Assembly: GCF_036321535.1 (NCBI RefSeq)
Contig: NC_087436.1
Location: forward strand, 35,404,001-35,468,000
Length of the DNA stretch: 64,000 nt
Origin: Camelus dromedarius
Taxonomy: Eukaryota
Direction: 5' to 3'
Positions within the stretch are counted from its first letter, which is position 1. Each line of letters begins with the position of its first letter. This document shows positions 382 through 63,137 of this stretch, one piece after another. The notes under the pieces are model-generated. The model searched no databases. It saw only the letters and a list, made by a program, of their open reading frames with translations, and was not told the origin of the DNA. A program made the position numbers and the translations under genes.

Positions 382-605
382 TAATATATATAAAATAGAT
401 AAGCAACAAATTTATACTGTATAGCACAGGGAAATATATTCAATATCTTGTAGTAACTTACGATAAAAAAGAATATGAAAACAAATATATGTATGTTCAT
501 GTATGACTGAAGCATTGTGCTGAACACCAGAAATTGACACAACATTGTAAACTGACTACACTTCAATAAATATTTATATATATATATATATGTATACCCC
601 AAAAT
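382..605 (+). mobile_element. 5'-truncated L1 3' end (cetartiodactyl/camelid type) with 15-bp TSD
   Basis: L1 3'UTR motif (tatataaaatagataagcaacaa...ctgtatagcacagggaaatatattcaatatcttgta...gactacacttcaataaa). Perfect direct repeat aaaggcatcatttta at 367-381 and 606-620, beside a TTAAAA endonuclease-like site. Confidence 0.9.
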
Positions 606-2989: not shown

Positions 2990-3124
2990 GGGGGAGGGTA
3001 TAGCTCAGTGGTAAAGTGCGTGCCTTGCATGCACAAGGTCCTGGGTTCAATCCCCAGTATCTCTGTTAATAAATAAATAAATAAATAAACACAATTACTG
3101 CCCCCCCCCAAAGACCTGATGAAA
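2990..3124 (+). mobile_element. tRNA-derived SINE, camelid Vic-1-like
   Basis: ggggagggtatagctcagtggta (A box)...gggttcaatcccc (B box), (aaat)n tail, TSD taaacttgca at 2978-2987 and 3125-3134. Confidence 0.85.
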
Positions 3125-4777: not shown

Positions 4778-4919
4778 CCCACAGCAAAAAAAAAAAAAAA
4801 AATGTGACAATGAATATATGTATGTTCATATATAACTGAAAAACTGTGCTCTACACAGGAATTTGACACAACAGTGTAAAATGACTATAACTCAATAAAA
4901 AAAAGGTTAAATAAATAAA
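4778..4919 (+). mobile_element. Short L1 3' end with 17-bp TSD
   Basis: L1 tail (gaatatatgtatgttcatatataactgaaaaactgtgct...gactataactcaataaaaaaa). Direct repeat taaaatgggtgagaaaa at 4761-4777 and 4920-4936. Confidence 0.9.
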
Positions 4920-5171
4920 TAAAATGGGTGAGAAAAGGCTGTGCATTCAATAAATGGTCCTGCAACAGTTGCTTATTCCCACGGAAGAAGCCTAGACCTG
5001 GCTGCCACAACTTGCACAATGTCTCTTCTGCTGCATTTTGTTAATCAAAGCAAGTCACAAAGCCAGCTCCTGTTCAGCAGAGTGGAGCAATAGTCTCCAC
5101 CTTTGAGAGAGGGGCAACAGTGCCACGTGAAGAAGCGGCAGGGACAGAGAGAGACCTGAGTCATTAAGGGA

Positions 5172-21579: not shown

Positions 21580-22188
21580 ATGAAACAAATACTAAATTCT
21601 GGAGAGGGTTTGGAGAAAAGGGAACCCTCCTATGCTGTTGGTAAGAATGTAAATTGGTGCAGCCACTATGGAAAACAATATGGAAGTTCCTCAAAAAACT
21701 ACAAATAGGTTACCATATGATCCAACAATCCCACTCCTGGACATATATTCAGAAAAGACAAAAACTCTAATTTGAAAAGATATAAGCACTGTTTATTTAT
21801 ATGGTATATATGTACAATGGAATATTACTTAATCATAAAAAAAGAATTAAATGCCATTTGCAGCAACATGGATGGACCTAGAGATTATCATACTAAGTGA
21901 AGTAAGTCAGAGACAGATATAAAGATACCACTTATAGGCAGAATCTTAAAAAAAGATACAAATGAATGTATTTACAAAACAGAAACAGACTCATACACAT
22001 AGAAACCTGTGGTTACCAGGGGGGGAACAGGGGAGAGGGATAAATTAGGAGTCTGGAATTAGCAGATACACACTACTATATCTAAAATAGATAAACAACA
22101 AGGATCTTCTGTATAGCCCAGAGAACTGTATTCAATTTCTTGTAATAACCTATAATGAAAAAGCACCTGAAAAAAAAAATATATATAG
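21580..22188 (+). mobile_element. L1 ORF2 end plus 3'UTR (internally deleted)
   Basis: ggagaaaagggaaccctcc...aatgtaaattggtgcagccactatggaaaac...gccatttgcagcaacatggatggacctagagattatcatactaagtgaagtaagtcag. Confidence 0.92.
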
Positions 22189-41800: not shown

Positions 41801-43336
41801 GCTTAGGGGCCAAATGACTTTACCAGAATATACAGTAAAAGCGTATTGCAAAAATTTCACTGATTCGTCTTACAGTCCTTTAAAATTTAGGCACAAGTTG
41901 ATTTTCCAGACATTAGTGCAAATGTATATTCCATCTTTTCAGTGAAATTAGATCCTTTTTCCTGGTACACCTAACTCCATGACCAGTTCTAGACAGAGGT
42001 ATAAAATGCCCATCTTAGGACACTGCAAAGTGAGATGGTGTATATTTTGCAGGGCAAGGTACTCAAAACAGTGGTAATCACACCGCCAAGACCAAAAAAC
42101 CTCTGAGTTGGACTTTTAGGAAGAAGCCCCTTTCAGAGATGACTGTCTCCATTCTAAAGACATGGGTTGAAACATTTGTTTTATATAAAACTGCTTGTAA
42201 AATTGGTCTAATTAAACCTCAAGATTGTGTCTGCTGGAATGTAAGCTATCACACGTAGTGATATTCAAACACAAACACAACTTACAAAGTTTTCAGCTTG
42301 GGCAAATAGGAATTTTTTAAAATATGAATTAATACAGCAAACCCAGCAGCAAATGTTATTACAGTATGATTAAAGAAGAAACATTAATATAGTTCAATGG
42401 ATACAGCACATATAATCTTCCAGGATCTGGCCCCTGCTAGCTCTGCAAACTCCACCCCCACCTCCCCTCCCAGCCCAGCTCCCACCACCCCCACCCCTCA
42501 TGCTGTCACACGGTGCTCCAACCAAGCACACCTGTGTCACATGCAGCCTCCAAAATCTCCTTGATCCTGAAATTCGTATAAACTGATTTCTCCACCTCAA
42601 ATCTCACCTCCCCACCCCCATTCTCCAAACTTATTCTCACAGTTCTTCCTTTGATTAATTCCTCCTTGTCCCCTCAAAATGTACACAGGCTCTAAAACTG
42701 CCAAAAATGGACATGGCATTAAAACAAACATCTTTTTTAGCCTCTTTGAGGCACTCTCATATCCTGCTTTACATTACAGGATTTGGCTTTGCACAGATCT
42801 CCGTTTGGGTAAATGAACAAATAAATGGTCTTGCCTGCTAGCAGAAAAATTCATTAAATTCCCAAGACCTCTTCTAGTACATTTCATTTCATACTAAATA
42901 TTTCACCCTGAGTATCATATTGATATTCTAGTAGTCAAACTTACTATATTTTCACCATCTAGATTATGTTTCATTTCCAAAGAAGTGTCTAATTTCATGG
43001 CTTGTGGCACATTTGATTTGTTACTTAAGCAAACAATAATGAACAAGTCACCGTCTCCCTGCATCTTAAATTCATAGAGTAATGTTAACTGAAATTCCTA
43101 GAGAAACTAAACAAGAAACTATGTATAATAAATCCTCATGCTTTTGTTTTCAACAAGTAGCCAAACTTAAGAAAGTACTGACAACTGATAAGTGATGTAG
43201 AAAATAAAAAGATGAGTCATTTTTATTCTGGCTTTATCCTTATAATGATCATTATCAAACTGTAATTTCAATTATATTATTGCTCTTTTATGTTAGGTTT
43301 GCTAACAACAATCCTGCTCATAATTTTTTCCACTAT

Positions 43337-43712
43337 AAAGATCACTTATATGTGGAATCTAAAAAAAAAAAAAGACACAAATTTATTTACAAAACATAAA
43401 GAAACTCATGGACATAGAAAACAAACTTATGGTTACCAGAAGGGAAGGGGGGCAGGGAGGGATAAACTGGGAGTCGGAATTGGCAGATACAAACTACTAT
43501 GTACAGAATAGATAAATGGCAAGGTCCTACTGTATAGCACATGGGACTATATTCAATGGCTCATAGTAACCTGCAATGAAAAAGAGTATGAAAAAGAATG
43601 TGTTTGTGTCTGTGTATAAATATATAACTGAATCACTATGCTGTACACCAGAAACTAATACCACATTATAAATCAACTTTTTACTTCAATTTAAAAAATG
43701 GGGGGAAAAAAG
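43337..43712 (+). mobile_element. L1 3' end
   Basis: atcacttatatgtggaatctaaaaaa...gacatagaaaacaaacttatggttacca...gaatcactatgctgtacaccagaaactaa. Confidence 0.9.
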
Positions 43713-45004
43713 ATATTCAAAGATATTCAAAACCACACTTGGAAGTAGTGCGACAAGCCGTGTACCTTCAGTGTGAGAGAAGCAAGTACTGCTGTGTTGT
43801 AACCCGAGAAATAACAGACTCACTTCTCTTAAAACTTAAACACTGAAATAGTGGGCCTGGGTTCATGAAGTGGACCTCTTTAACAAAGTTTCTTCCCCTT
43901 TAAAGTTCTGACACCTCTAAGCGTGCCCTCATTCCTGAACACGATTCTTCTGCGCTGGGATCATCGGTTCCCATATTAAAAAACAAGAGAACAAAGCTGA
44001 AAAAGAAAAAGGAAAGGGCCGTTCCTCACTTCCAGGACCCAGGCTTATCTCAGCAGCCTCCTATTTTTAACCAGATTGCAAATGGTATCCCTGATCAAAG
44101 GCCCAGAGCCCTGGAGGAACTTGGGCAAACAGCACGCAGCAGAATGCTTCCTGATGATCTGTAAGCAGGAAAGGACTTTTGACATGAAAGACAGCTTACG
44201 CAGCACAAGAATAGCCACAAACCAGCTGTAAAATGCTTAACGTTGCCCTTGAACGAATGCAAATTGTTCCAAATAATTTTTCCTTTTTTCACAGCCTCTG
44301 GAAGCCCCGCTGGGGCATTTAAACAGCCACATGCTCAGTATACAAAAGCTTCTCCAAGTGGGAAAATACGGTGTACTAATGTGTTTAGAATAAGGGAACT
44401 GAGCACATCCACAGTTCACATTTGATGCCTCCTTTTCCTTTTGTTGGGGAATAAGTTCATTAATGACAGACTTGTTTTGGATACTAACTAAGCTTCCAAT
44501 GTTTTGGCTTAGGAATACTTATTTAACCACTGAAGTGGTTGTTAATTTAAAAGGTAAATGTGTAACTGAGTCTTAACCTAGGACTGTTCATGCCACTGGA
44601 ATGTATATTTACCTAAAGGTTAAGAAGTACAGTGCTTACTTTTCTTTTTGTTTTCTTTTAGACAAATATATATTATAGAAATGCAATGAATACTATGAGG
44701 TTTATATATCTTTTCCACTATAAGTCATGAGAATAGTATTATTATCTAATATTTCATATTTGCATAGTTACAAAACACTTATCTATATATGAATTCATTT
44801 ACTTCACAAAAAGGCTCTCAAATACATTAATGTTCTTCCACATAATCCTTCAAATAAAGAGGTAAAACAAAATGATCCCTCTCAATAATGATGCCTGTCC
44901 TAATCAATTATGTTCATTCTTCATTTAAACTAACAGATTAAAAAGAAACCTCTTAATACTTCATTATTTTAAAATCACATTGTGTAGTTTAGAAAACTAT
45001 ATAC

Positions 45005-46549
45005 CTACAGTTAAAAGATATGCTTTATTTTGCAAGAGAAAATTTACCTTCAAATAATTTGACAATTCACTAATAAAAGTTAGGCAGAAGGGTGTATTTA
45101 AAAAATCAAACAAACAATTAAAAAAAAAAAACCTTTAAAGTTACTTTGATAGATACAAATACACTGTACTTGACAGAGTGGGTGTGTTGCTTCAATATTA
45201 AATTTAAATAAAATATTTATGAATCAAAACATATAAATTATACTTTATAACTAAACAATAGACTATGCTATCAAATTCTTCTGTAAAGAACATCTTTCTG
45301 TAATAAATTATTGCCTTAACCTTATTTATTAAGTCTACATTTTCACATTTGTCTAAAAATAATAAAATCATTTGAGATGGTTACTTTGTGGTCTCAAGTA
45401 GAATAAATATCCCCACAAAACCATGTTCTGTATATATATATAGTATAACCAGGGAAGAAAAATATCCCTCTACTCAAATATCAAAAATCACTTTAAAAAT
45501 TAATGTTTTAAAGCAAACATGCATGGAAAAGAGAACTTTTCTACAGTAATACGCAGCTTAAAAATATTTGTTTAGAAGCATTGTACTGGAGACTTCTGAT
45601 AGGGTCAGTGATATTATATATTAAATTTCTAAGTGCTTTCTGTGAAAGTAGTCGTTATCAAAACTAGTTGCTTTTTCAAGCAGAGAAAAGTGGTACTTTT
45701 TAAAATAAGTACTTATTTCTTTAATGTCATGCAAACCTATAACATTTATTAGTAAGAGTATAGTATGCATTAAAATCTAATCCCCATTCCCCCCGAGATT
45801 TATTTCATATTATACTCTGTCTTTATTTTTATAATAATAAATATGGACGCAGTGAGTACACAAAGCCTTACTGTGCTTCGTTGGGGAACCAGCTAGACGA
45901 CTAGCACAATTGCTGTGATTTTAAACCATGTTTTACTTAAGACTAATTTTTCATCAGTGTTAGAGGTTAATAACACTGTTATTTCCTCTATTACCTGGAT
46001 TTAATAAAAGCAGTGGGGCATAACATTCTGTAAAGCCAGGCAATAAGAGGAAATAACACAAATGTTAACCTCTAACATAAATGTAACGGTAATTACTCCA
46101 GTCTAGTTTTAAAATTAATGCCTTTGGTAGTGTCCCAAGTGGCCGGAAAAAAAAAAAAAACCCCACCTCTCTCTCCTCAGAGTTCTAGCAACCCCAAGAT
46201 CCAAGGTCAAGGGCAAATTATGCCATCAGTTTACATGCTTAACAACAGTTGTGCACCACATCAGCCTTTAATACAGGAGCACATTATATTAAGAGTAACA
46301 CATTGTTATAAAATAATAAAACTGTAATTATAAATCAGCTAAACTGAAATTGCATATTGAAAATGTTATTTAACCCCAAAAAATGCTGCAATACAGAAAA
46401 GTTGATCCATCTTCTCATGTGTCAAAAATAAAATCAAGTTACACAATAAGGTAGGTAAATTTCCAAGTTAAATACGTAAGAAAGGGAAGCATGCAAAACG
46501 GTTTCATCTCTACCTAACCGGTACTTTTTAAAGGGGCACTTCAGTTTTA
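45005..46549 (-). other. Probable 3'UTR of the minus-strand gene
   Basis: Follows the TAA TAA stop. AU-rich, with no recognised interspersed repeat. Minus-strand AATAAA at 45024-45029, plus others at 45325, 45745 and 45822. The 3' end is inferred. Confidence 0.6.
45958..46077 (-). repeat. Long imperfect inverted repeat (~45-bp arms)
   Basis: tgttagaggttaa/ttaacctctaaca (13/13), tgttatttcctct/agaggaaataaca (13/13), attacctgg/ccaggcaat (8/9). Confidence 0.95.
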
Positions 46550-46606
46550 TTACAAGTCAGCTTTGTCTTCCATAGCAGCAACTCGTGTCAGCAGCCTCTT
46601 GGCAAA
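46550..46606 (-). CDS. Terminal coding exon of an unidentified gene: FAKRLLTRVAAMEDKADL*
   Basis: Acceptor ctaacaacag|TTT, phase 0, tandem TAA TAA stop, followed by UTR-like sequence; in frame with the 49.0 kb exon. Confidence 0.75.
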   Translation of the reverse strand, partial: FAKRLLTRVAAMEDKADL

Positions 46607-49009
46607 CTGTTGTTAGCAAGTTTGAGGTTAATTTCTATTAATTATCTCAGATCCTCAAGCCCTGCCATGTGTTCACTGAAAACCAAATTTCGGATTTCAG
46701 TTTTGCAATTCTGTGAGGCCTATCTACATTTTGTAGGTCCACCAAGGACAAGCATGCCAAGCTTCCATTTTTCCCACACCACCACTCATCACAGGCTTCA
46801 GCCGTCTATTATTCCCTGTCATCTTTTCATATTCAGTTTACAAAAGCAAAAATGTGCCTCCAAGCTGTTGATGACCCAAAGTTTGTTGGACTCCTTTCTT
46901 AATAAATTCCTTCTGTATGTGGATCTTGTCACTCATCTCTTGTATTCATCAAGGCATGGGCACTTGGTGGCACCCCAAAATGTTTACTGACTGATACACT
47001 GACTGATATGCAATAGTGGAAACAAGAGGGGAAGATCTTTGTTCCAGCTGAACTAGACAAGCCCTACTACATCGTGTAGCAGAAACCTAATTCCTGATCC
47101 ACTTCTTGTCTCATAGACTGTGACTGTCAAAGTGTGAGCATGAATTTATCTTGTCCTCGGATAACTGGCAGGTAGGGTGAGGACTACCATGATAACTAAT
47201 TCTTTTAAAGAAAATTCTGATCAGCATGGCAAATATAATTATGATGACAATGTCATTTAAAAAGTACCTATCAGCTTCATCTTTGGAGAACTTGAAATCT
47301 TAATCACCCTATAAACTACTGGGAGGGAAAAACTTCAAACAGGCTTACAGGAAGTTTCAGAAAGGGAAATGGAAAATGTGACTGATGAGAAGGATCTTCA
47401 GTGGCCCAGAGCCATGAACAAGGTCACTCAAATAGACAGAAGGCCCTCCTCAGGTGTGGTCCCTTTGTTGTGTATTTACACTGGCTCCTGTGTTGAGAGG
47501 AGGCCTCCACGGTCCTGAAAACTGCCAAAAACCCCTGGCTGAGCGCCGCAATAAACACGGTCTGTGATGATAACCTCTGGTGCACTCCACATGTACCCGG
47601 ATCGTCTGCGACCTTCACTCCCCTCTGCAGCAAGTCAGAATAACATTTGCAGTCCATCGACTTGGGGACACGGGGAGCAATGAGAGCAGCACAAAGGGCG
47701 AGTGGTGAAGAGAAGCAGAGGGACACAGCTCATTGTTTGCAAAGAGTGGGCCAGGCTCACAGCCAGCCAGACCGCTCACCAGCTCTACTATCAGCTGATG
47801 AGTTAACCTCTCACAGTCTCCTCACTCATAAAATTAGAATCAAAACTGCAACTACCTCAAAGTCAATAAAATGACCTACATAAAGCAGTGATTACTATCC
47901 AGTAATTATAATCCTGCATGGAAGGCTCACTAAAACCATCAGGAAATCAAAATTGCAGTAGCAAATGCTGCTATACAAAGTTGCACATTTATCTTTTATT
48001 ATCCAAACCAAGAATTCTAGAATAAGTTACCTGATTTAGAAAAGTCCAGAAGAGCACGTGCTTACATTATAACATCTCAATACTACCCACTCTTAAAAAA
48101 GAAGTTGTATCTGATACTGCTCCCACTAAGAAAATGCCCCTCACCTAATGAACTGCCAATAACTACACGTTTGAAGAAGGAACAAGGATTAACAAATTGT
48201 AGTTTCCTCTTAAAAATTTTTCTTGGATGGAAAGAAAGTAAAATTTTCTTTTTTTATTACAAATATTCAACTCTGTATGTATATTTGACAATATAATGAA
48301 ACTTATCAAAATAAACAAAGACAAATAAAACATGGTCTCAATGCCTGCAGAGTTCAGAGGCTAATGAAAGAAAAATCACATGCATAAATAATTATAATAC
48401 TAACCTATGCTATAACAAAGGTGTTTCAAAGCTTCTGGAGTACAGAGTCGAAAGGATAAGTAGGGATTCATAGTAAAACTGAAATATTTCCTGGACCTAG
48501 AAAGATGACTTGGGCCAGAGGAAAAAACAAATTTTCTGAATGTCCTGAATGGATATCCTTTTGTATGCTGACTCTAGGAAGCTAACCAAATACATGGCTG
48601 ACTGTTCCCACAACAAGAATTACCCAAATGATGGTAAAAAATTGCCCCACACATTCCACCATTACCGTGACTGAGTATCCAGAAGGAATTTCCAAGGGAA
48701 AGATTAATGCTTGCTACCTTCACACAGTTTAAAAACTATTTAGAGCAAGAGCCATTCCTTATTCAGCTTTGTATTCTTTGGCACGTAAAACAAAAATTGT
48801 TGTCGGCCACTTAAAGGGCTGGTCTCTCGGTCAGAAACCAGAATTCCCTTAGCTTTGTGGCATGTGCTCTGAATCCAGAAGTTAATCCCCACCAGTCAGA
48901 ACTACCTCTCACCTTTGGGGAACAAATCCTTGTTTTAGGAAGACTTCCCTGGGGATCAAGTTATCCCATCAACAACTAGCGACTTTCTTATGAATAAAAT
49001 AGTCCTTAC

Positions 49010-49096
49010 GTTTGTTGGTCCCTCATTCTTGTAAAGCTTGTTAATTCTGAGAAACTCAGGACTTTCCCCCAAATTAACATCCATTTTCTTAAGGCT
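49010..49096 (-). CDS. Penultimate coding exon: SLKKMDVNLGESPEFLRINKLYKNEGPTN
   Basis: Acceptor atcttcttag|AGC, donor AAC|gtaagg, 87 nt, phase 0-0, open frame. Confidence 0.75.
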
Positions 49097-51293
49097 CTAA
49101 GAAGATATGGTGATGGTTGATGCCATTATGTTATTTAAATTCCGTTAAATGCCAAATCCATTGTTTTATATAAACACATTAATTTTTATCACTCAAGCTA
49201 CAGAAATCAAGAGGCATTGCTCTATTTTAAGATGTTATAGTGGGCAAGAGACAATATCAAATGAGGTGGCCCATAATCAGGATGCGATTGCCTGGAAAGA
49301 CGTCTAACTAAAACAGTATAAGAGATAATCTTTGAGAAATTAATCATTGATGGACTTTGTGCTATGTATTTCAGCTTAAGAGCCTGTCTAATCCTAGGAA
49401 ACTTCTAGTTCAGGAAGATTAAAGTCATTCTAGGTCTCACTGTTTTAAGCATTTGGCTGCAGTCTTAGAAATCTGCTCGAGGACCTCTGTCCTAAAGCTG
49501 TTCATTTCTCTGAACGGGATGGACAGGATTTTGCAGTCTGGAACAGTCTGCAATCAGAGCCCAGTCTTTCCTAGTTGACTGCTTAGCAACCAACTAGGAC
49601 CCAAAGGATATGGACTAAAGGCACTTAGAGTTTCCTAATTAAGGCTGCTAATAACAGAAGCTTTCTATATACAAAGCTTAAAAAGAGGAAGAGGCAACTG
49701 GAGATGATTTAAAGATAAAGCAGGACATTTCAATGACTCACCCATTACCAAAAGTTGTATTAACTCTAGACAGAGGCTTTGGCAAATACTAACCTCCTGA
49801 CCTAAAAAAAAAAAAAAATTTAGCTATATGAGCTTAAAATCAATTACTGTACGGGAACAATTTAGCTATATATAACTATTATGCACAAGCAGCATTTGTG
49901 GATCAATAATTTACTAGAAAGAATTAGAGAGGATATTTGCCCTACGGGCTTAGAATTTAAAAGTTAAAAAGCAAAATAGGTACTTTTAAGGATTCAGAGT
50001 GGTTGAATGATTCATATTTGTTTTGTGTATGGAACAGAGATGATATTTTCATTTCCTATTTTCAATTCATTTGAAAAGCTAAATGCTTTGTAGTGGTGCA
50101 AGGACCACTGTAAATACATCCAGTCAACAAGGCCATAGAAAGACACAGCCACCACTGGTATAGCGTCCTCTAAAGTGAAATTTGAAAATAATAGAAAATT
50201 AATTCTGATCAGTATTGCTAATAGAACAATAGCAGCTCATCCTGACGCCACTGTCCTAGGTTTTCCCGTCTCCCCCAGCCAGCAGATGAGTCAGCCCAGA
50301 GCAGGCATCCAGCTGAGGCAACTCTGGAAATAGAAGAACTCATAGCTACAAAATACCATTGTGAGACCTTAAATCTATATTATTCTTTAACTTTAAAAAA
50401 CAAAAAGAAAGAAAACGGAAACAAAAGTTTCCCTGTTAGTAGTTTCCCGTAATCGCCTTAGTAACACTGAGACAAAGGGGATCTCAGTTATGTTACAGAT
50501 GAGGAATAAAAGTCTCCACGAAATTCCAAGACCTAATAAATAGAAACCTTAGAACTAAAACGGATGTCCTTCAACCTGAAGCCAAAAAAAATCTTCCTGC
50601 TCTACAAACCACATGCCATCTTGTTCATATTCCTAAGTTCGTGGGCAACTGACTTGATTTGCTTTCTCTTTGCAGATGTTTCATGGAATTCCTCTGTTAT
50701 TTAAAACAAATGTATTAAAACCTTGGTTAAAGCCAGATAGAGGAAACCTGAAAGCTATTCTGCATCTGTTTTTGTTACACATGGTAACCAAGGAGACAAA
50801 AACACCCACAGGCCCCACTTCTGCTACTGCTAGTAGTTGAGTGTCAGTGTTTTATGGCCTTGACGGCCATATTTGATTTTTTTAAGAGACAGAAAATAAA
50901 CAAAAACTCTATGTACCGTTTCCTCTGTTTGCAAGAACTGTGACCTTTGACTCTTATAAATCTATTCAAAGCCAAAGTCTGGAGATTGGGTGTTTCAGGA
51001 ATGTTCAAGATATAGCTTGAGATTTATAGAACTGCAAACTTTTCTTGGCTTTTCTTGGCCCGTTTTATTTGATAAAACTTAACTGGTAAACAAAGTGGCT
51101 GCACATCCTCTACAAAACGTCCATTAGGTTATCTTGCTTTATACCAAACTAGAGTTTGTTTGCACAAAGAATTAATGAGAGGGGTTACTGAAGGACTTTA
51201 GTCTCTTCTTTTCTTCCACTTGGACAGACTGTTTGCAATACCAGCACTAATGAATACAAATAAAAGTAACTGACATTCTAATGTATAACTCAC

Positions 51294-52679: not shown

Positions 52680-55600
52680 TGAAGATTTAGTAAAACCTGT
52701 ACTAAAAAAGTGTCTGGTTTTGTGGGTAGGTTCTTGACTGCCAGTTAAGTGACAATGGTTTTAGATTAATTTGTTTTTTAAAATTTCTTTTCTGTCAATT
52801 TTGGTAATATACAGTGTTCTGGAAAATTGGCCAGTTCACCCAAGTATTTACATAAAATTTTTAATATTTTAATATTTCCATTCTGCATATACTCATCTTC
52901 CTTTTTTTATTCATAATATTTATATCACCTTTTTGAAAATCAGTTTTGTCAGAGGAATTTCTTTCTAAAGAAACAGATTTTAGGGCTTTGTTTCTTTGAT
53001 TTATATTTAATTCATATTTTTGTTCTGGCTTCTTTATGTCCTGAGTTTATATCCTGAGTTTGTTTCCTGAGTGTACTGTGCTTTTCTCTTTCTACCTTTT
53101 GGTGCTGAATGCATGGAAAGAACGTTAATTTTCCACGTGTCTTCTACACTGTTACATGAATTTAAGATAAAACTCCCTACAAACAATTTAATAACTGCCT
53201 TCCACAAATTTTAACATGTAGTGTTTCACTGATGCTTAGTTCTACCGTTCGTTTTTATTTCTTCATATTGTCATGGTTTAAAGCATGGTAACGGAAGTCA
53301 GGTTGTCTGGGCTTTCCATCTTAGCTCCATCCTTCACTAGATCTGTGCTTTCATTTCCTCATCAGCAAAATAAGAACAGCATAGAACCCACCTAAGGGTG
53401 TCATGAAGTTTATAGCATGCACGTGTCACAGCACATGACCCACTGAACACTCTGCTGAAACTGGCTGCCACCTTCATCATCATCTAAACATCATCAGTAT
53501 TAAATCCATTAAATATGTTAGAGAATATTGCTTTAAAATGCATAATATGTAAGTTATACCCATATGTTCAAAATATATCATTATATAATGTTATTGGCTA
53601 TGGTCAGACAATATCATACTGATTCACTGACATTGGTTGTGATTGACTTTGTAGGGTCAATCTGTATGTAAGCTTTGTGTGTGCTTGAAAAGTGATCTCT
53701 CTACTCTGTAGTTGTTGGGGGAGGGATTTTGTAAATACACATTAGACCAACTGTGTTAATTTTATTATTCAATGTGTCTGTATATGTATTAAACTTCTAT
53801 GCTTGACACCAGTACTTCACAGAGTTGTGTTAAAATCTTCTATGTGGATTTGTTAATTTCATCTCAACTTCAAATTATTTCAGTTTTGGCCCCTGTGTTT
53901 GAGGATGTGTTGTTAGTTACTCACAAGTTGAAACTGCTACATATTCTTGGGAAATAGCAGCTTCCTCATTAAAAATAATCCTCTTTAGTAATGTATTTTG
54001 GGTCTCAGTTCTACTAATACAGTATTTCCCTAATATACTTTTCCATGTGTTTACTTTCAGCCTTTCTATGTCATTGTTGTGCTCTACTTCTTACAAAGAA
54101 GTACATAAATCAAAGATTAAAATTAAAATCTCTGTTTAACTGATCATACGTTTAATCAGTTTACATCTATTGAGATGATTTATCCACTTGGATCCTCTCT
54201 ACCATTTTGTGTTGTGTCATTTTTGTTTGTATTTTCTCTTCTCCTTTCCTGACATCTAATGAATTGATTGAATTATTTTTACTCTCTTTACAATATTGTT
54301 AAGTTCTTTTTGTGGAGATGCTTATGTTTTATTTTGTTTTTAAATTTTAGACATATGATTTTAATTATCTGCTAGACCATTCACATGGAAATATGTGGTA
54401 ACCGAATGGAAACAAGGGGTCATAAACTTAGAAGAGAGGTAAGTATTTTTGAGCAGCATTTTCCATTTAAATCAAGTTAGGTTTAGACATTCACCAGATT
54501 GGTCCACTTTTTTAACATTTAAAATAAACTTCCTGTGCCGAAAATTTTTACAAAACAATGTATTTAAACTGGCTTCCAGAAATTGTCCAAATAATTTTTT
54601 TAACACAATTCAAGTGCTTTTTTTCCCCTACATTTCTTGAAATCTCAAGTTTTCCTTGGCAACTTTATCCAAAAGGCTACATTTTCATTTTAGAGATTAT
54701 ACTTCATATTTATGTAAGAGTGTCCTAAATTGATGTTCACAGGATATCTTTCTCTAAGCCCTAGTGGTTTATACTTTCTCTTTAAAATATCTAAATATCC
54801 TATAAGTAAGTTGTCATTCTCAAAGTTGTTTTGTAGAAAAATTTGTGAATTACACATCTATAAATTCCTACCCTTTGCTCTCTCCTTCCCTTTTGTACCA
54901 CCTGGATGCAAAATTTATGAAGCACTAGGGAAGAAGAAGCCATGCAATAGAAAGACCTTGGTCCTTGACCCTGTGCAGACGACCTTGGTCCCTAACCTGG
55001 CCTAGGAACCTGATCAACTTCTACGTGAGTGAGAAGAAAACTCGTATTGTGTTAAGCCACTGAAATTGTAAGGACTCCCTGTCAGAGCAGCTACCATTAT
55101 TTCACTGATACAATTCCATATTTATTTCTTAATTCACTCCAACAAGTGGTCCTTTTAATTGATGTCTATAAGCATTTAAAGTGATTATTGATACAGTTGA
55201 ATCAGTATCTACCATGTTTAACTGTTCTAATTATTGCATTTGTTCTGTTTCTTCTTATTCCTATCTTTTTCTGCCTTTCCAATTTCAGGTGAGCATTTCA
55301 TGATTCCATTTTTTCTCCTCTTGTAGCATGTTATACTTCTTTTAAAAATATTTTCAATAGTTGATGAAATTTCAAAAATGCATTTTTAACCAATCTAAAT
55401 CCACCTCACATAACTCTATGCTGCTTCATGTAATGCAGTTATTCCTAATTCCTCCTTCTCATCTCTTATTCACTTATTTACTCATTTCACTTATCCGTAT
55501 GCCACAATAACCCAATACTTTGTTACTATTATTGCTTTAAACCAACAATTATCTTTTAGTGCAATTAAAAACAAGAAAAGCAAAAGACTTCATTTTACGT

Positions 55601-57480
55601 TATGTATTGCTTCTTTGACACACTTCCTTTCTTCACACAGGTCTGAGTTTCTGACCTACATCATTTTCCTTCTCACTGAAGAACTTCGCTTCACATTTCT
55701 GTCAGGGTAGTTCTGCTGGTGAAAAAGTCCCTCAAGTTTTGTTTGTCTGAGAAAACCTTTTCTTCTTTACTCTTGAAGAGTAATTTTACTGCATATAGAA
55801 TTATATGTTGATGTTTTTCTTTCAAAACTTTAAACACTTCCCTCCACTCTTTTCTTATTTGCATGGTTTCTCATTAGAAGATCACTATAATTCTTATCTT
55901 TGTTCATATATAAGTAAGGTGTATTTTTTTCCTCTGGATTCTTTCAAGAATTTTCTCTATGTTTTTGATTTTCTGCAGCTTGATTATGATATACCTAGGT
56001 ATAGTTTCTTGGTTATTTTTTGGAGGGATGGTACAGTAATTCTTCTTCTTAGGCTGAGCTTCTTAGATCTGTGGTTTAGTGTCTGTGATTAATTTTGGAA
56101 AGTTCTTAGCCATTATTACCTCATCTATTTCTTCTGCTTCTTCTCTATCTGGTATTCTAATTATGTATATGTTACATCTTTTGCAACTGTCTCATAGTTC
56201 TTGGATGTTCTGGAATTTTTTTCCCTTTACCCTTTTTTGTTTTTGTTGATACTGGGTTTCCCTTTACCTTCTAATTTGGTAAGTTTCTATTGACCTATCT
56301 GCATTCTCACTAGCTCTCTCCGCAGGCATGCCCAGTCTACTGAGGAGGGCATCAAAGACACTCTTCCTTTCTGTCTTTGATTTCTAACATCTCCTTTTGA
56401 CTCTTTCTTATAGTTTCCGTCTCTTCACTTACATTACTCATCTGTTCTTGCACATTGTCTTCTCTTCCCTTTAGTCTTTAAGTTATTAATCTTAGTTATA
56501 TTAACTTCTGATAATTCCAACATCTGTCCCGTATCTAAAGCTGATTCTGATTCTTGCTTGTCTCTTTGGACTGTGTTTTTCTTGCTTTTTGGCATGCTTT
56601 GTGATTTTGTTTGAAAGCCAGACACATCATACTAATATTTGCTATAAATGTAGGTGCCAGAGTATTCAGTTTTCTCTAGTATCCTTGTTTTTATTGCCCC
56701 TGTTGACTCTGGGCTTCCCTAAGCACTCTTCTTCAGAGACAGCCTGCATCTTACAGCTCTTTCTATCGTAATCCACCATCACTACATCGGAGCCTGGCTG
56801 GTGTGGTGATAAAGTGCGGGAGGAGGGAAGCATTATGGAATCTGAAGATTAAATCTCAAGTTTTTAGTATGTCTGGGTCCCTGGGCTGTGACCTTCACAA
56901 GCACTTCCTCATGGTATACCTTTCTTCCTCTTAAGTCAGACCAGAAAACTAGCTGGAGTAAGCATGCCCTCCCCCAACTGGGATAAGGCTCTGGTACAGT
57001 CTTACCTCCTCAAGCGTATGCCTTTGTTATGAACAACTCTGTGGGAATATTTCATGATGATTGCTCTTTCCCTTTCCACCCCAAAGTCACAAGACGATCC
57101 TTCTTGGATCTTCACTGTGACAGCGGTTGGGTTCCTGGAACTTAAAGCTCACCGGAGCCCCATAAAAGCATAAGCCTCACAAGTTTCTCACTTTCCCCCT
57201 GGTTCATAGCCCCCAGCATTTCCTCAAAATTACCATTTAAGGGTCCCGACCCTCTGATGGCACCAGCTGCTTCTGCCCCAGGTAAGCAGATCTCAGCTGT
57301 GACTCTGGATTTGCCCATCTCACCAAAATCTAAAGTGGGAGTTGGCCCTGTAACCTCTGTTCTCTGATGGGTCCAAGGAAAGTCATCCATTTTAAGTGCA
57401 TGTAGCTTCTCTGTTGTAAAGACAGGAGGGAGGGACCACTTCCAAGCTCTTCACATGTTAGAACTGAAATCAGAAGTCCT
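52680..57480 (-). mobile_element. Old fragmented L1M block with nested MIR (~53.3 kb) and MLT1 (~54.9-55.1 kb)
   Basis: T-rich decayed L1 motifs (tttgtttgtctgagaaaacc...actcttgaagagtaattttactgcatatagaatt; ttggaaagttcttagccattatt); MLT1 end tgtgttaagccactgaaatt. Confidence 0.7.
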
Positions 57481-57975: not shown

Positions 57976-59844
57976 CTGCAAAGTAGCAGTGTCGGGGAAC
58001 AAGTTATCATTCTGAAATAATAAAGGCCATTCATTTTAGTGACGTTTAAAATGCATGAGAACATTTATGACCAAACCCATATATTTCTCACCATGAATAT
58101 GTGGTATTAATTATCAATCCTGCTGCAGGGAAGAACACGTTTATAACATTATGAAGAAAATCTTTCTTTTACGTTAAGGATGTTCGCATTTGGAAGGAAA
58201 TTATTGTGTTGGTTAATGTGGCCCAGTTTCTGGTGATAACCTTTCTGCAACTGTCAATATTTTTCTCCATGGGGCTGCATTTCAAAAACATTTGATATGA
58301 CATTCTATACCATGCTAGTAGGAAATTATGTTTAATATTGTAAAATATTACAATTTAGGCATTACTTGACTAGAATTGGCTACCTGAGTCACACTTCATT
58401 TGAAAAAAATAAGAATCTAATTTATAATAGCCACTACTACCTCACATAAGATACAATAACCAAGTAACGCATTAGCTGGCATGCCTACAAAGACAATATA
58501 ATATCATAATAATATTAGCAATAGTAATAAGGTGATATTTTCAACCCAACACTGAGAAGAAAGACCTTTGGCTCCTTTTATTTTCACAACAGTCTTCAGT
58601 TGGATATTTTTGTGAGAAGCAGAGAAGCCCTATAATGACCTGAAAGAACACATGGATCCCCAGAGCCCTTTCCAGATGGAGAAGGCAATGTCCTCTACTT
58701 ACAGGTCAGATGAGTAAAGAACCTGCTGTGGGAGTATCCATCCAAAAATCCTCAACCCTTACAATAGCACCCATTACTGAAATAGCAACTTTCAGCACCA
58801 GCCAGAGCTTGGAAAGTTTAAAATGAGAAAAGAGGTTTTAAAGCATTACTTTACATTATTAGAATCAGGCCAGGAGAAAATGGATATCAGGATGTTAGAA
58901 CTGGCTGACAGGATGAATGTTTCCTGCCATACATTTCTGTGTTCTTGTTCCAGTACCTATACTTACTAATTAGGTGTCCTAGACCAAGTCTCTCTGAGCC
59001 TTGTCAGAAAAAAAAAATCTCTTGATGTCTTCATCTCTAAAATGAACTTAAAGGCATCTCTCACATGGGCAGTGATGAGGCCTGTATGAGGTAATTTGTA
59101 AAAAAAAAAAAAAAAAAAAAGTTCTGTATAATGTCCAGCATGAAGCAAATCTTCAATACTAGCTCAATGCTCAGACTCATCTCCTTTTTTTTTTCCTTCC
59201 TCTAATCCAACTAGGAGAAATATTTTCAACTTAAATGGCTAAGAAATTGGAATAAAATTCCCCTATATTTACTTAGAAATGCTCAGATATCTAACTTTTG
59301 TTTGCATATCTTATTTCATTTTATTATGTATCTTGTATTATTTTGTTTCCGGGAACACAGTTGAGATTAGACTTGGCCCCAGCTGCACGATTATGGTTTA
59401 ATAAGGGAAACAGCACAGACACACATTCTATCTATAAAAATAAGAGCTGCAATGATGACCAAAGAAGTGAGTAGTCAAGAGGATCCAGAATTACGTTGGT
59501 GGTTTGGAGGTCACTGGATGTTAGGGAAATTGTCCTGAACTGTCATTTGAAGGAGAACAAGGAAGTGATGAAGCAGAGGAAAGGTGTTATCCAGAGCAAA
59601 CATTTGGACTGACAGAGAACATCAAGGTCAAGCGGAACACGGCTCTTCACATGAACCAACACCCACCCAGGCAGGTGCTCAAGACTCTCGTCCTTCCTAG
59701 AGAGCCCCAGAACGCTCCAGCAGTCAGCACCCGAGTCAGCCCTGAGCCAGACATCATCTATGCTCTAGGCTTTTTAAAAAAATCTCCCTCACTTTTTTCC
59801 ATTCCGTCAAAGTACTCAGTCCTACGATATCCTCTTCTCTATTT

Positions 59845-60038
59845 ACTATATATAAAATAGGTTATAAAAACCCAAATTTCTTCTCTATAACACAGGGAAC
59901 TATGTTCAGTATCTTATAGTAACCAATAGTGAGAAAGACTATGAAAATGAATATATGTATGTATATGTATGCCTGAAACATTATGCTGTACACCAGAAAC
60001 TGACACATTGTAACTGACTATACTTCAGTAAAAAATAA
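59845..60038 (+). mobile_element. L1 3' end, same family as 382-605
   Basis: actatatataaaatagg...acacagggaactatgttcagtatcttatagtaacc...tgtaactgactatacttcagtaaaaaataaa. Confidence 0.9.
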
Positions 60039-61329
60039 AGTACACTAAGCTCATCTGATATAATAATATTTACTAGTATAACATGAGTGAAGTACAAAAT
60101 CCACATTTTCCCAAAAAAGCACTAATAAAAATTCCAGCAGTTTTCCTAGAGCTATCCCAGAATCCACTAATCAAAATAAGCATGACCTGCAAACAAAAAT
60201 AGAGGCTGAAAATGACAGTTGTCTATTTCAAAGAATGAATTAACATACACTTGAGCTATTCAGTAAAGATGGCAAAATAACTGCATGTGTATTTACTGAA
60301 AACATTATGAATTGAGTTATAATATAATCTCAAATTATATAAACATTTACTTAGATAACAAAATACTTAGTTTTGAAAAATCTTACCTTTGGAAATATTT
60401 TAGAATTTCCGATGTGAACAATTCAAATCACAGATGGCATAAAACAAATGCAATAATATTTTCCCTCGAATGTTTAGACTGTTTCAGAAACAGAGGTAGG
60501 AGTTCATTCCAACACTTAAACATCATGCTAGAGACTCTCCACAACTATTATCACAAAACACCATTATCTCAAAACATTATCTCAGAACAACATGCTTGAA
60601 ACTAGCTCAACTAATTCTCATCCGAGAAAACCAAAGAGTTTATATTCCATAAGGCACCAACATGCAAAAGATCATCATTGCAAAAAATAAATGTGTGTGT
60701 GTATTTTTCTCTTTGAAAATATTTTTATGTTAGAAAGTATATTCTTACTTTTAAAAGATGCATACAAAGCTCACTGAATTTAGTATTTTCATTATACACA
60801 TCTCCCCACTTCTAGTAAACCAAGTTAAAAAATAATAGCTCACTCTTAGTCTCATATCAGTGAGTAATCACACACAGAGAGCAAACTCAAACAAGTAAGA
60901 GACTCACAGTGTCCTCTAGGTGGTAACAATATTTGCTCTCTAGTTAACAGCTAAAGACGTCCAAGTTCTTATAGAAGCATAATGCAGTTTATACCCCAGA
61001 TTTAGCAAATGTGAGTCAGAGATCTCTCATAAGGAGGTATGCAAATGTGACGGATGCCACTGTTAAATTTAGGATCAGCATCCTCTTACTTGAAGGATAG
61101 AAACGAGGAGACCTCCTCTCTCTGGAACACTTACCATCAGTGATGGATGCCACCTAGTTCATATATTTCAGAAAATGATACTCCTGCTGTGTGGACGCTA
61201 AGCCACTGTAACCCTACATGTCTCGCTGGGGAGTTGTTTTTTTTTTTTTCAATAGACCTATTCACCCTTTGCCACATTTTAAAGTCCTGCAGCACTGAGT
61301 ATAAACTACAGCTTTTGAAATTAGAATAA

Positions 61330-61835: not shown

Positions 61836-63137
61836 TGAAAAAATTAAAGTGCAAAATAGACAAGCTTTCCCCTTGCCCTCTCTCCTGTAGCTTAAAATAC
61901 ACAACACAAAGAAAACCAGATTAAGCACATTAGTCTTAAAACAATCAAAAATAAGCACTAAACTAATACAAGTGAAATTCAACTGCATGTGATCTGCTTA
62001 AATCAGTATAAATATATATGTCATACCATGAAAAAATGACCACACATAGAGGAAAGATAAGTATGTTTATATCTGAGTTTATGCTATCTTTCTGAGTAAC
62101 CTTAGGCAAGTCACATGTACAGTTATAGTCATAGAATAAGATGGGAGGAGTAGATGAGTTCTGAAAGCCCTTTCAGATCTAATATTCGATCAACCACTGG
62201 AAAAATCCTCTTAATTTAGATGACACCCTGGACTTCCTTCAGCCATCGGAAGGCCCCACACCAGTTTCAGTAACTGTGCACAAGGCCCCCTGGGCAGGGA
62301 CTGTGTCTTGTATAAATATTTACACTTTAAATAAGTCTCCTTCACATAATAACAGCTCGATAAATACCTGGCAATAAAGCATTCTTCTTGTTATAGTTAT
62401 ATTTTCATGACCTCAGCAAACCTGTCCCAAAATATTTCCAAAAATTTGATCAACTTGTCTGCACAAATAGCAACGGCTAATCTGGTCTAAGATCCGATGC
62501 GAGTGTAAAAACTAATTATGGTAAGACTTAGTACACAGGTTTGAGTAAGCTGCTTTCATTCAATTCTCAGCATGAGAGAGCGTGGCCCCCCAAAGCCACT
62601 AAGCACCACTGTTCCTGTGCTCTGCGAGAGCTCGGAGACGTCTTCCATAGCGGCTCTGTTTGATCCATCTTTCTGGTTTGGCCTTCCCTTTGTTCTTCAC
62701 AGGAGCCTAAATTTGTTTTGGTAATTTCATCAGCTTCAGAAAAAGCCAGAGTAAGTGTGCTGGTTAAAATATTCAGTGAGCACATCTATCAGCATGTTGT
62801 ACATGAGAAACAAAAGGCTAAAGCTGCAGTTGTAGCTTTAGGAGCCAGCAGCCAGAATGGGTAGCTAGAGCAGCCCACAATCAGGAAACCAACGGGCCAA
62901 CGGCATGGATGCTAAGGGCAGAGAGCCCCACAGCAGACAGCTCCTCCGCTGAGCTGGGACAAGGCAAAGTCAAAACAGTGGGGAAGAATGGCAGTGAAGA
63001 GCCATCACCACACTAAACTGATCCAAATCACATTCCTGTCGCTCCTCTATAAATTGAATTTATTTTTTAAATTTTTGGATTGATAAATGGAAAATATGAT
63101 ATATGGTTTAATCATTAAAATTAATCAAAACTTTCAA

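What the first reader, a model, noticed from the sequence alone, without database searches (positions are those of the whole stretch)
45958..46077. Long strand-asymmetric hairpin in the putative 3'UTR
Seen: three helices (13, 13 and 9 bp, plus a short AU extension) separated by a 6x6 internal loop and a 1-nt bulge, closing a ~27-nt loop, about 470 nt after the stop codon. The mismatch in the 9-bp helix is A-C on the + strand but a G-U wobble on the minus (mRNA) strand. This is the strongest non-microsatellite symmetry I found. Inference: a structured RNA element (ADAR/Staufen substrate, localisation element or miRNA-like precursor), possibly exapted from an ancient palindromic DNA-transposon derivative (Eulor/UCON-type classes).
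Basis: partly seen in the sequence, partly recalled or inferred. Interest (0 to 1): 0.7.

Follow-up and report, generated by a model that had tools for sequence, protein, structure and literature searches.

The report
Nested-palindrome hairpin in mammalian non-coding DNA
The 120-base hairpin is real and strong, but it looks like a local DNA-copying accident (an inverted duplication of an already palindromic stretch) in non-coding DNA, and nothing yet shows that it is a conserved RNA signal.

Summary
The hairpin at 45958-46077 is real: about -53/-55 kcal/mol, z about -8 on both strands, with the 13+13+9 bp anatomy described.

Strand asymmetry: 3 mismatches wobble on minus and 2 on plus. The 2.4 kcal gap is reached by 75-80% of neutral-decay simulations.

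Stop codon 470 nt upstream: that frame has no acceptor, changes mostly non-synonymously, and probably holds a stop in a related genome. No host gene was identified.

New here: each arm is itself a hairpin. The 6x6 loop looks like one templated change: an exact 8-nt inverted copy of adjacent sequence (null 0.7%, post hoc). Best reading (0.5): an inverted duplication made by replication template switching, then altered once more, in probably transcribed non-coding DNA; incidental dsRNA. A conserved RNA element stays open (0.25), because orthologues, editing and transcript ends could not be examined. No Rfam family, TSD or second copy was found. The scan has no look-alike sequence, but it read two other hairpins in this genome similarly.

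The parts
45958..45970 (.). Outer 13-bp helix, left arm (pairs with 46065-46077)
45971..45976 (.). Left side of the 6x6 internal loop; 45971-45978 is the exact reverse complement of 45955-45962 (candidate template-switch product)
   Evidence: 8 of 8 nt, null 0.7%
45977..45989 (.). Middle 13-bp helix, left arm (pairs with 46045-46058, one A bulged at 46045/46046)
45990..46003 (.). Inner 9-bp helix with A45993.C46041 (G-U on minus), one mismatch and a 4-bp A-U extension, left arm (pairs with 46031-46044)
46004..46030 (.). 27-nt spacer/apical loop, weakly structured
46031..46058 (.). Right arm of the inner and middle helices
46059..46064 (.). Right side of the 6x6 internal loop; 46054-46065 repeats directly at 46073-46084 (11 of 12 nt), an alternative template
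   Evidence: null 2%
46065..46077 (.). Outer 13-bp helix, right arm
45955..45998 (.). Left arm as a hairpin of its own (-13.7 / -11.6 kcal/mol, z -3.3 / -2.7)
46038..46080 (.). Right arm as a hairpin of its own (-8.4 / -7.9 kcal/mol, z -4.2 / -2.2)
45952..45954 (.). 3-bp ragged outer extension (pairs with 46081-46083); symmetry beyond it is not significant (p 0.23)
46000..46005 (-). AUUAAA at the top of the stem, with a CA ending 23 nt downstream at the internal loop; one of 9 such hexamers on minus in 2.3 kb, so not significant by itself
46538..46987 (.).

Best explanation
A locally generated nested palindrome. (1) A 40-45 nt A+T-rich stretch was already a quasi-palindrome able to fold back on itself (shown for both arms today). 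(2) During replication the polymerase switched template and laid a reverse-complement copy of about 46 nt some 27 nt away, giving a near-perfect 46-bp inverted repeat (inferred). (3) A second short templated change rewrote six adjacent bases in one arm, splitting the stem into 13 bp / 6x6 loop / 13 bp (sequence signature shown; which arm changed is not fixed). (4) One indel and two point changes followed. The site lies in non-coding DNA that is probably transcribed from the minus strand (intron, lncRNA or long terminal exon; inferred). The RNA would then fold into a rod that is an incidental, selectively editable ADAR-type duplex, with no shown role. If neutral, about four events over 46 columns point to a young, lineage-restricted element (inferred), not a several-hundred-million-year-old one.
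For: Substitutions are clustered: 5 of 6 in 6 of 41 columns, P=0.0014 under scatter. The left loop plus 2 nt is an exact reverse complement of 45955-45962; 0.7% of composition-weighted alternative loops do as well. In the other polarity a direct template lies 19 nt away (11 of 12 nt, null 2%). Each arm folds alone, z -2.2 to -4.2, and the arms also align as direct repeats. No 4-9 nt TSD at the ends. No second copy in the window by blastn or nhmmer. The strand gap is ordinary for neutral decay. Flanking 44.5-47 kb is no more structured than background: 9 of 156 (5.8%) versus 5.7% of 300 windows at z<=-2. Template switches are reported to build whole stems in one step, over 6,000 in the primate lineage (PMC10710096, abstract and section 6), and to act within one stem half (bioRxiv 10.1101/2021.04.15.439925, passages).
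Against: No orthologue of the hairpin was obtained, so youth and neutrality are inferred, not shown. The template tests were post hoc, with two polarities and two template kinds tried; allow about four-fold (roughly 3%). Clustered changes with intact helices are also what selection on helices would leave (two perfect runs of 13 or more arise in 4% of scattered-decay trials), and template switching can maintain selected stems. RNA-labelled runs hold up to 0.64 of the words of the surrounding 3 kb, and a transcribed exon-like setting raises the prior for function. A 64-kb window has little power to show copies of a low-copy repeat family.
Confidence: 0.5

Rival explanations
1. A conserved cis-acting RNA duplex in a long 3' terminal exon (or intron/lncRNA) of a minus-strand transcript. 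Its 13-bp and 22-27-bp helices are kept by selection as an ADAR or Staufen site, or it hides a weak AUUAAA and its cleavage site and so favours downstream poly(A) sites.
For: z about -8. Helices intact while changes cluster in one loop. Minus-strand G>C plus T>A skew is positive in 8 of 9 blocks. In the rod, 4 of 6 AUUAAA bases and the downstream CA are paired. Internal loops can uncouple helices into selectively edited units (PMC3113232, passage).
Against: No strand preference. No coding last exon found. The skew continues for 44 kb downstream, so it marks no gene end. Poly(A) hexamers are common here, 9 on minus and 15 on plus in 2.3 kb. No Rfam match. The loop is explicable by one mutation.
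Confidence: 0.25
2. Remnant of a small palindromic non-autonomous DNA transposon (MITE, MER-type or Eulor/UCON-type) whose long terminal inverted repeats, with nested sub-terminal repeats, form the stem.
For: 120-nt size, perfect 13-bp terminal inverted repeats and an internally repeated motif are MITE-like (sequence; general knowledge). The left unit has CAG...CTG ends, like many DNA transposon ends (recalled).
Against: No 4-9 nt TSD; the 2-3 nt candidates do not abut paired ends or are part of the palindrome. The right end lacks the matching CTG. No copy in the window. The arms are too alike for an ancient family decaying neutrally (inference). Dfam/Repbase were not available.
Confidence: 0.15
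3. A lineage-specific miRNA precursor born from the inverted duplication.
For: Long stem with a loop over 10 nt; template switching is a documented source of new miRNA stems (PMC10710096). One CNNC lies 19 nt past the plus-strand stem end.
Against: The stem is 26-27 bp above the internal loop or about 46 bp with a 6x6 break, against the preferred 35 bp (PMC10710096 introduction). No CNNC on minus. The best Rfam miRNA hits score 23.8 and 17.1 bits against gathering scores of 90 and 84.
Confidence: 0.05

Closest known systems
Template-switch-generated hairpins and de novo miRNA stems (Monttinen, Frilander, Loytynoja; PMC10710096; bioRxiv 10.1101/2021.04.15.439925)
   Same: Short inverted copy next to its source, no TSD, near-perfect stem, and a multi-base change matching a nearby reverse complement ('TSM within a stem half').
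   Different: Those cases were dated on alignments of relatives; here no orthologue of the hairpin was available. Here both arms are themselves hairpins (four copies of one motif), and the stem does not fit miRNA geometry.
Selectively edited ADAR duplexes broken by internal loops (PMC3113232, PMC8041805, PMC10713624; passages read)
   Same: Helices uncoupled by a loop; an A-C mismatch inside a helix on the plus strand.
   Different: No editing, strand or conservation shown.
MITEs and ancient palindromic repeats (Eulor, UCON, MER-type; PMC5753468, passages read)
   Same: Short, with terminal inverted repeats and a palindromic body.
   Different: No TSD, no second copy seen, arms very alike; Eulor families are defined by sharing across bony vertebrates, which was not testable.

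Membership tests
Template-switch-generated hairpin | Reverse-complement copy adjacent to its source, without target-site duplication | tested here: met
Template-switch-generated hairpin | Cluster of changes explained by a nearby template | tested here: met
   cluster P=0.0014; template nulls 0.7% and 2%, post hoc
Template-switch-generated hairpin | Sudden appearance on one branch, unstructured in outgroups | not testable with these tools
   no orthologous DNA of the hairpin found
MITE / non-autonomous DNA transposon | Terminal inverted repeats | tested here: met
   13-bp perfect ends
MITE / non-autonomous DNA transposon | Target-site duplication abutting the ends | tested here: not met
   none of 4-9 nt; 2-3 nt candidates do not fit the paired ends
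MITE / non-autonomous DNA transposon | Dispersed copies | tested here: inconclusive
   none in 64 kb; no whole genome held
Eulor / UCON ancient repeats | Match to a Repbase/Dfam consensus and sharing across amniotes or bony vertebrates | not testable with these tools
   no such library or vertebrate genomes on hand; definition from PMC5753468 passages
Primary miRNA | About 35-bp continuous stem | tested here: not met
   26-27 bp, or about 46 bp with a 6x6 (minus) or 4x4 (plus) break
Primary miRNA | Apical loop of 10 nt or more | tested here: met
   27 nt, weakly paired
Primary miRNA | Known family or processed 22-nt reads | tested here: inconclusive
   no Rfam family at gathering score; small-RNA reads not examined
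ADAR/Staufen duplex | Duplex of 20 bp or more | tested here: met
   inner rod alone -33.7 kcal/mol, z -6.1
ADAR/Staufen duplex | Editing or protein binding in vivo | not tested
   no read-level data obtained
3'UTR element of a coding gene | Coding last exon upstream (the frame ending at 46552-46547) | tested here: not met
   no acceptor above threshold from 46100 to 47623; 7 of 9 changed codons non-synonymous, 1 synonymous, 1 ambiguous; probable in-frame stop in one related lineage
3'UTR element of a coding gene | Site lies inside a mature transcript | tested here: inconclusive
   RNA runs hold part of the 3-kb stretch; strand, ends and coverage of the hairpin unknown

The most novel reading that the evidence does not exclude
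A replication accident turned into a 3'-end switch. On the minus strand the first-made arm can fold on itself, leaving AUUAAA (46005-46000) open while it is transcribed. Refolding into the long rod pairs most of the hexamer and the CA cleavage site, so the race between folding and 3'-end processing (possibly tuned by ADAR or Staufen binding) would choose between this site and the AAUAAA cluster 180-260 nt downstream. It would be a template-switch-born, two-state RNA element controlling alternative polyadenylation. One paper search with five such terms returned one review only (listing seen), which is too narrow to show absence from print.
Probability: 0.06. Interest if true: 0.6.

Novelty: new member of a known kind. 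Interest (0 to 1): 0.22.

Why it matters
Most likely it matters little: it is one more mutation-made hairpin of a kind reported in thousands per lineage. Its value is as a clean, readable case in which helix-loop-helix anatomy and a G-U on one strand, often taken as marks of selection, can come from two templated mutations. If orthologues show conservation, or reads show editing or use of the buried poly(A) signal, it would become a testable example of a regulatory RNA switch created by template switching.

Tried and rejected
Host gene: not identified.
- Pfam on 85 + 86 stop-to-stop ORFs: none reached a curated cut-off. These were chosen by eye from several hundred, so small exons can be missed.
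- Homologue searches of 48959-49096(-) and 57145-57450(-) against longer proteins were empty; weak evidence by the tool's own note.
- Rough splice-site scans with recalled weights gave only unverified short candidates.
- A shared 'AAMED' reading at 46.57 and 62.63 kb had no blastn support.

Orthologues or copies of the hairpin: none.
- Viral contigs 0. Locus searches with the neighbouring ORF family 0 of 4.
- Exact look-up of 10 ORFs at or near the hairpin, 0 of 10; ESM Atlas no hit.

Rfam: only a tRNA-like hit at 2994-3065; weak generic hairpin hits locally.

Literature motif searches: 9 papers for six stem motifs; the 2 that I opened were ARF6 primers, the other 7 were seen as listings only. 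0 papers for six further motifs. Supplements were not searched and could list the locus in genome-wide structure or editing tables.

Rejected ideas: a longer decayed palindrome in the flanks (p 0.23); a cluster of structured elements nearby; a piggyBac reading of the two TTAA (ends face the wrong way; inspection); the loop poly(A) hexamer as evidence (too common).

Full report
Verdict. The hairpin is real and far stronger than chance. The two supports offered for function, strand asymmetry and a 3'UTR position, do not hold. Its anatomy is most simply explained by two templated replication errors. Conservation, editing and transcript structure could not be examined, so a functional RNA element remains open.

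The observation. Folding 45940-46095 gives -52.7 kcal/mol on plus and -55.1 on minus, z -7.9 and -8.4, with 0 of 200 shuffles as stable. The helices are 13 bp, 13 bp with a one-base bulge, and 9 bp with A45993 opposite C46041, followed by four A-U pairs and a 27-nt loop. It is the top-listed short-range inverted repeat in the window. Of 3194 windows of 120 nt it ranks fourth by energy, behind three of 56-63% GC. Among the 1309 windows of 30-40% GC (mean -19.0, sd 5.1) it scores -46.5, and the best such window elsewhere scores -33.8.

Strand asymmetry. Of 52 opposed columns, 42 are Watson-Crick, 3 wobble on minus, 2 wobble on plus and 5 fail on both. When a perfect duplication was mutated at random with 3 or 8 substitutions, a strand gap of 2.4 kcal or more appeared in 75% and 80% of 400 trials each. 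An A-C mismatch is also a favoured ADAR site (PMC10713624 and PMC8041805, passages), so it does not select the minus strand.

The presumed stop codon. The distance given points to TAA TAA at 46552-46547 on minus (my inference). No acceptor passed my rough threshold between 46100 and 47623. A phmmer search with the overlapping plus-strand ORF found 4 unnamed proteins, and a profile search found one more cluster. They look like spurious ORFs on orthologous DNA and shift frame against the window. Combining two reading frames of closely similar records gives a stop 10 codons early in that lineage (this assumes the records share the base). So this is homologous non-coding DNA. Pfam on 171 selected ORFs and two homologue searches found no coding exon in the window; small exons may have been missed.

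Setting. Unchecked scan notes call this genome camelid and place FREM3 14.2 Mb before and PPP3CA 16.7 Mb after the window. With recalled human coordinates this suggests roughly the SPRY1-ANKRD50 region of 4q28; that is a lead only. Four runs on record as RNA (one study) hold 0.25-0.64 of the words of 44500-47500, and six guessed-RNA runs hold 0.23-0.60. Minus-strand skew (G>C plus T>A) is positive in 8 of 9 blocks, both upstream and for 44 kb downstream. That fits a long minus-strand transcription unit but marks no 3' end.

What the anatomy shows. Each arm is a hairpin by itself: left -13.7/-11.6, right -8.4/-7.9 kcal/mol, z -2.2 to -4.2. The arms also align as direct repeats, so one motif occurs four times, a palindrome of palindromes. 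The rod (-51.5) is far more stable than the short-range fold (-24.3). Five of the six substitutions in the 41-column core fall in six columns (P=0.0014). The left loop with two further bases is the exact reverse complement of 45955-45962, which 0.7% of composition-weighted alternative loops achieve. If instead the right loop is the derived one, a direct template lies 19 nt away (11 of 12 nt, null 2%). These tests were post hoc, with four combinations tried. Either way one templated event can account for the loop, leaving a near-perfect 46-bp inverted repeat with one indel and two point changes. Template switching is reported to create whole stems in one step, over 6,000 in the primate lineage (PMC10710096, abstract, opening and section 6), and to act within one stem half (bioRxiv 10.1101/2021.04.15.439925, passages). 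The signature is shown; the order of events, the age and neutrality are inferred.

Against my reading. Selection on helices would also leave intact stems and a changed loop, and two perfect runs of 13 or more arise in only 4% of scattered-decay trials. The same mechanism can maintain selected stems. The RNA-run signal raises the prior for an exonic setting. On minus, AUUAAA sits at the top of the stem with a CA 23 nt later; the rod pairs 4 of the 6 hexamer bases and the CA. But 9 such hexamers occur on minus and 15 on plus in 2.3 kb. The flanking 2.5 kb is no more structured than background (5.8% of 156 versus 5.7% of 300).

Known families. No Rfam family reaches its gathering score at this site. 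There is no 4-9 nt target-site duplication and no second copy in the window, though 64 kb is a weak test and no genome was held. Eulor families are defined by sharing across bony vertebrates (PMC5753468, passages), which I could not test. The stem is 26-27 bp or about 46 bp with a break, against the 35 bp preferred for miRNA precursors. It would work like a selectively editable duplex (PMC3113232, passages), but membership of that class needs editing data. All searches for orthologous DNA of the hairpin itself were empty. The scan holds no look-alike stretch.

Scores. Template-switch inverted duplication with no shown role 0.50; conserved RNA element 0.25; transposon remnant 0.15; miRNA 0.05; other 0.05. 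Novelty: new member of a known kind. Interest 0.22. The boldest reading not excluded is a template-switch-born two-state element that gates a poly(A) site (probability 0.06, interest 0.6).

Noticed in passing
window 2994-3095 (+): tRNA-Ala(TGC)-like sequence followed by a (TAAA)n tail, probably a short tRNA-derived SINE.
   Followed up: no
window 45703-45718, 49569-49599, 49658-49679: Three further short palindromes: 16 bp perfect, 31 bp at 84%, 22 bp at 91%.
   Followed up: no
window about 46500-46540: Orthologue-derived ORFs P0002, P0006 and P0009 carry about 40 residues upstream of the aligned part with no good match in the window, hinting at a deletion of roughly 130 nt in this lineage.
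   Followed up: partly
window 51733-51713, 51313-51294, 49801-49794, 13565-13558 (-) and 62703-62750 (+): Short segments with good acceptor and donor scores (candidate micro-exons); none could be tied to a protein.
   Followed up: partly
window 53400-56800 (-): A-rich block with reversed skew and L1-like translated fragments, a decayed LINE-1 (family recalled).
   Followed up: no
window 382-591, 4794-4920, 21918-22186, 43334-43699, 59844-60057: Five related repeat fragments, 63-81% alike, resembling L1 3' ends (family recalled).
   Followed up: no
window 47427-47870: G+C- and CpG-richer patch with open frames of 50-100 codons on both strands and a weak minus-strand acceptor at 47624; no Pfam hit.
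   Followed up: partly
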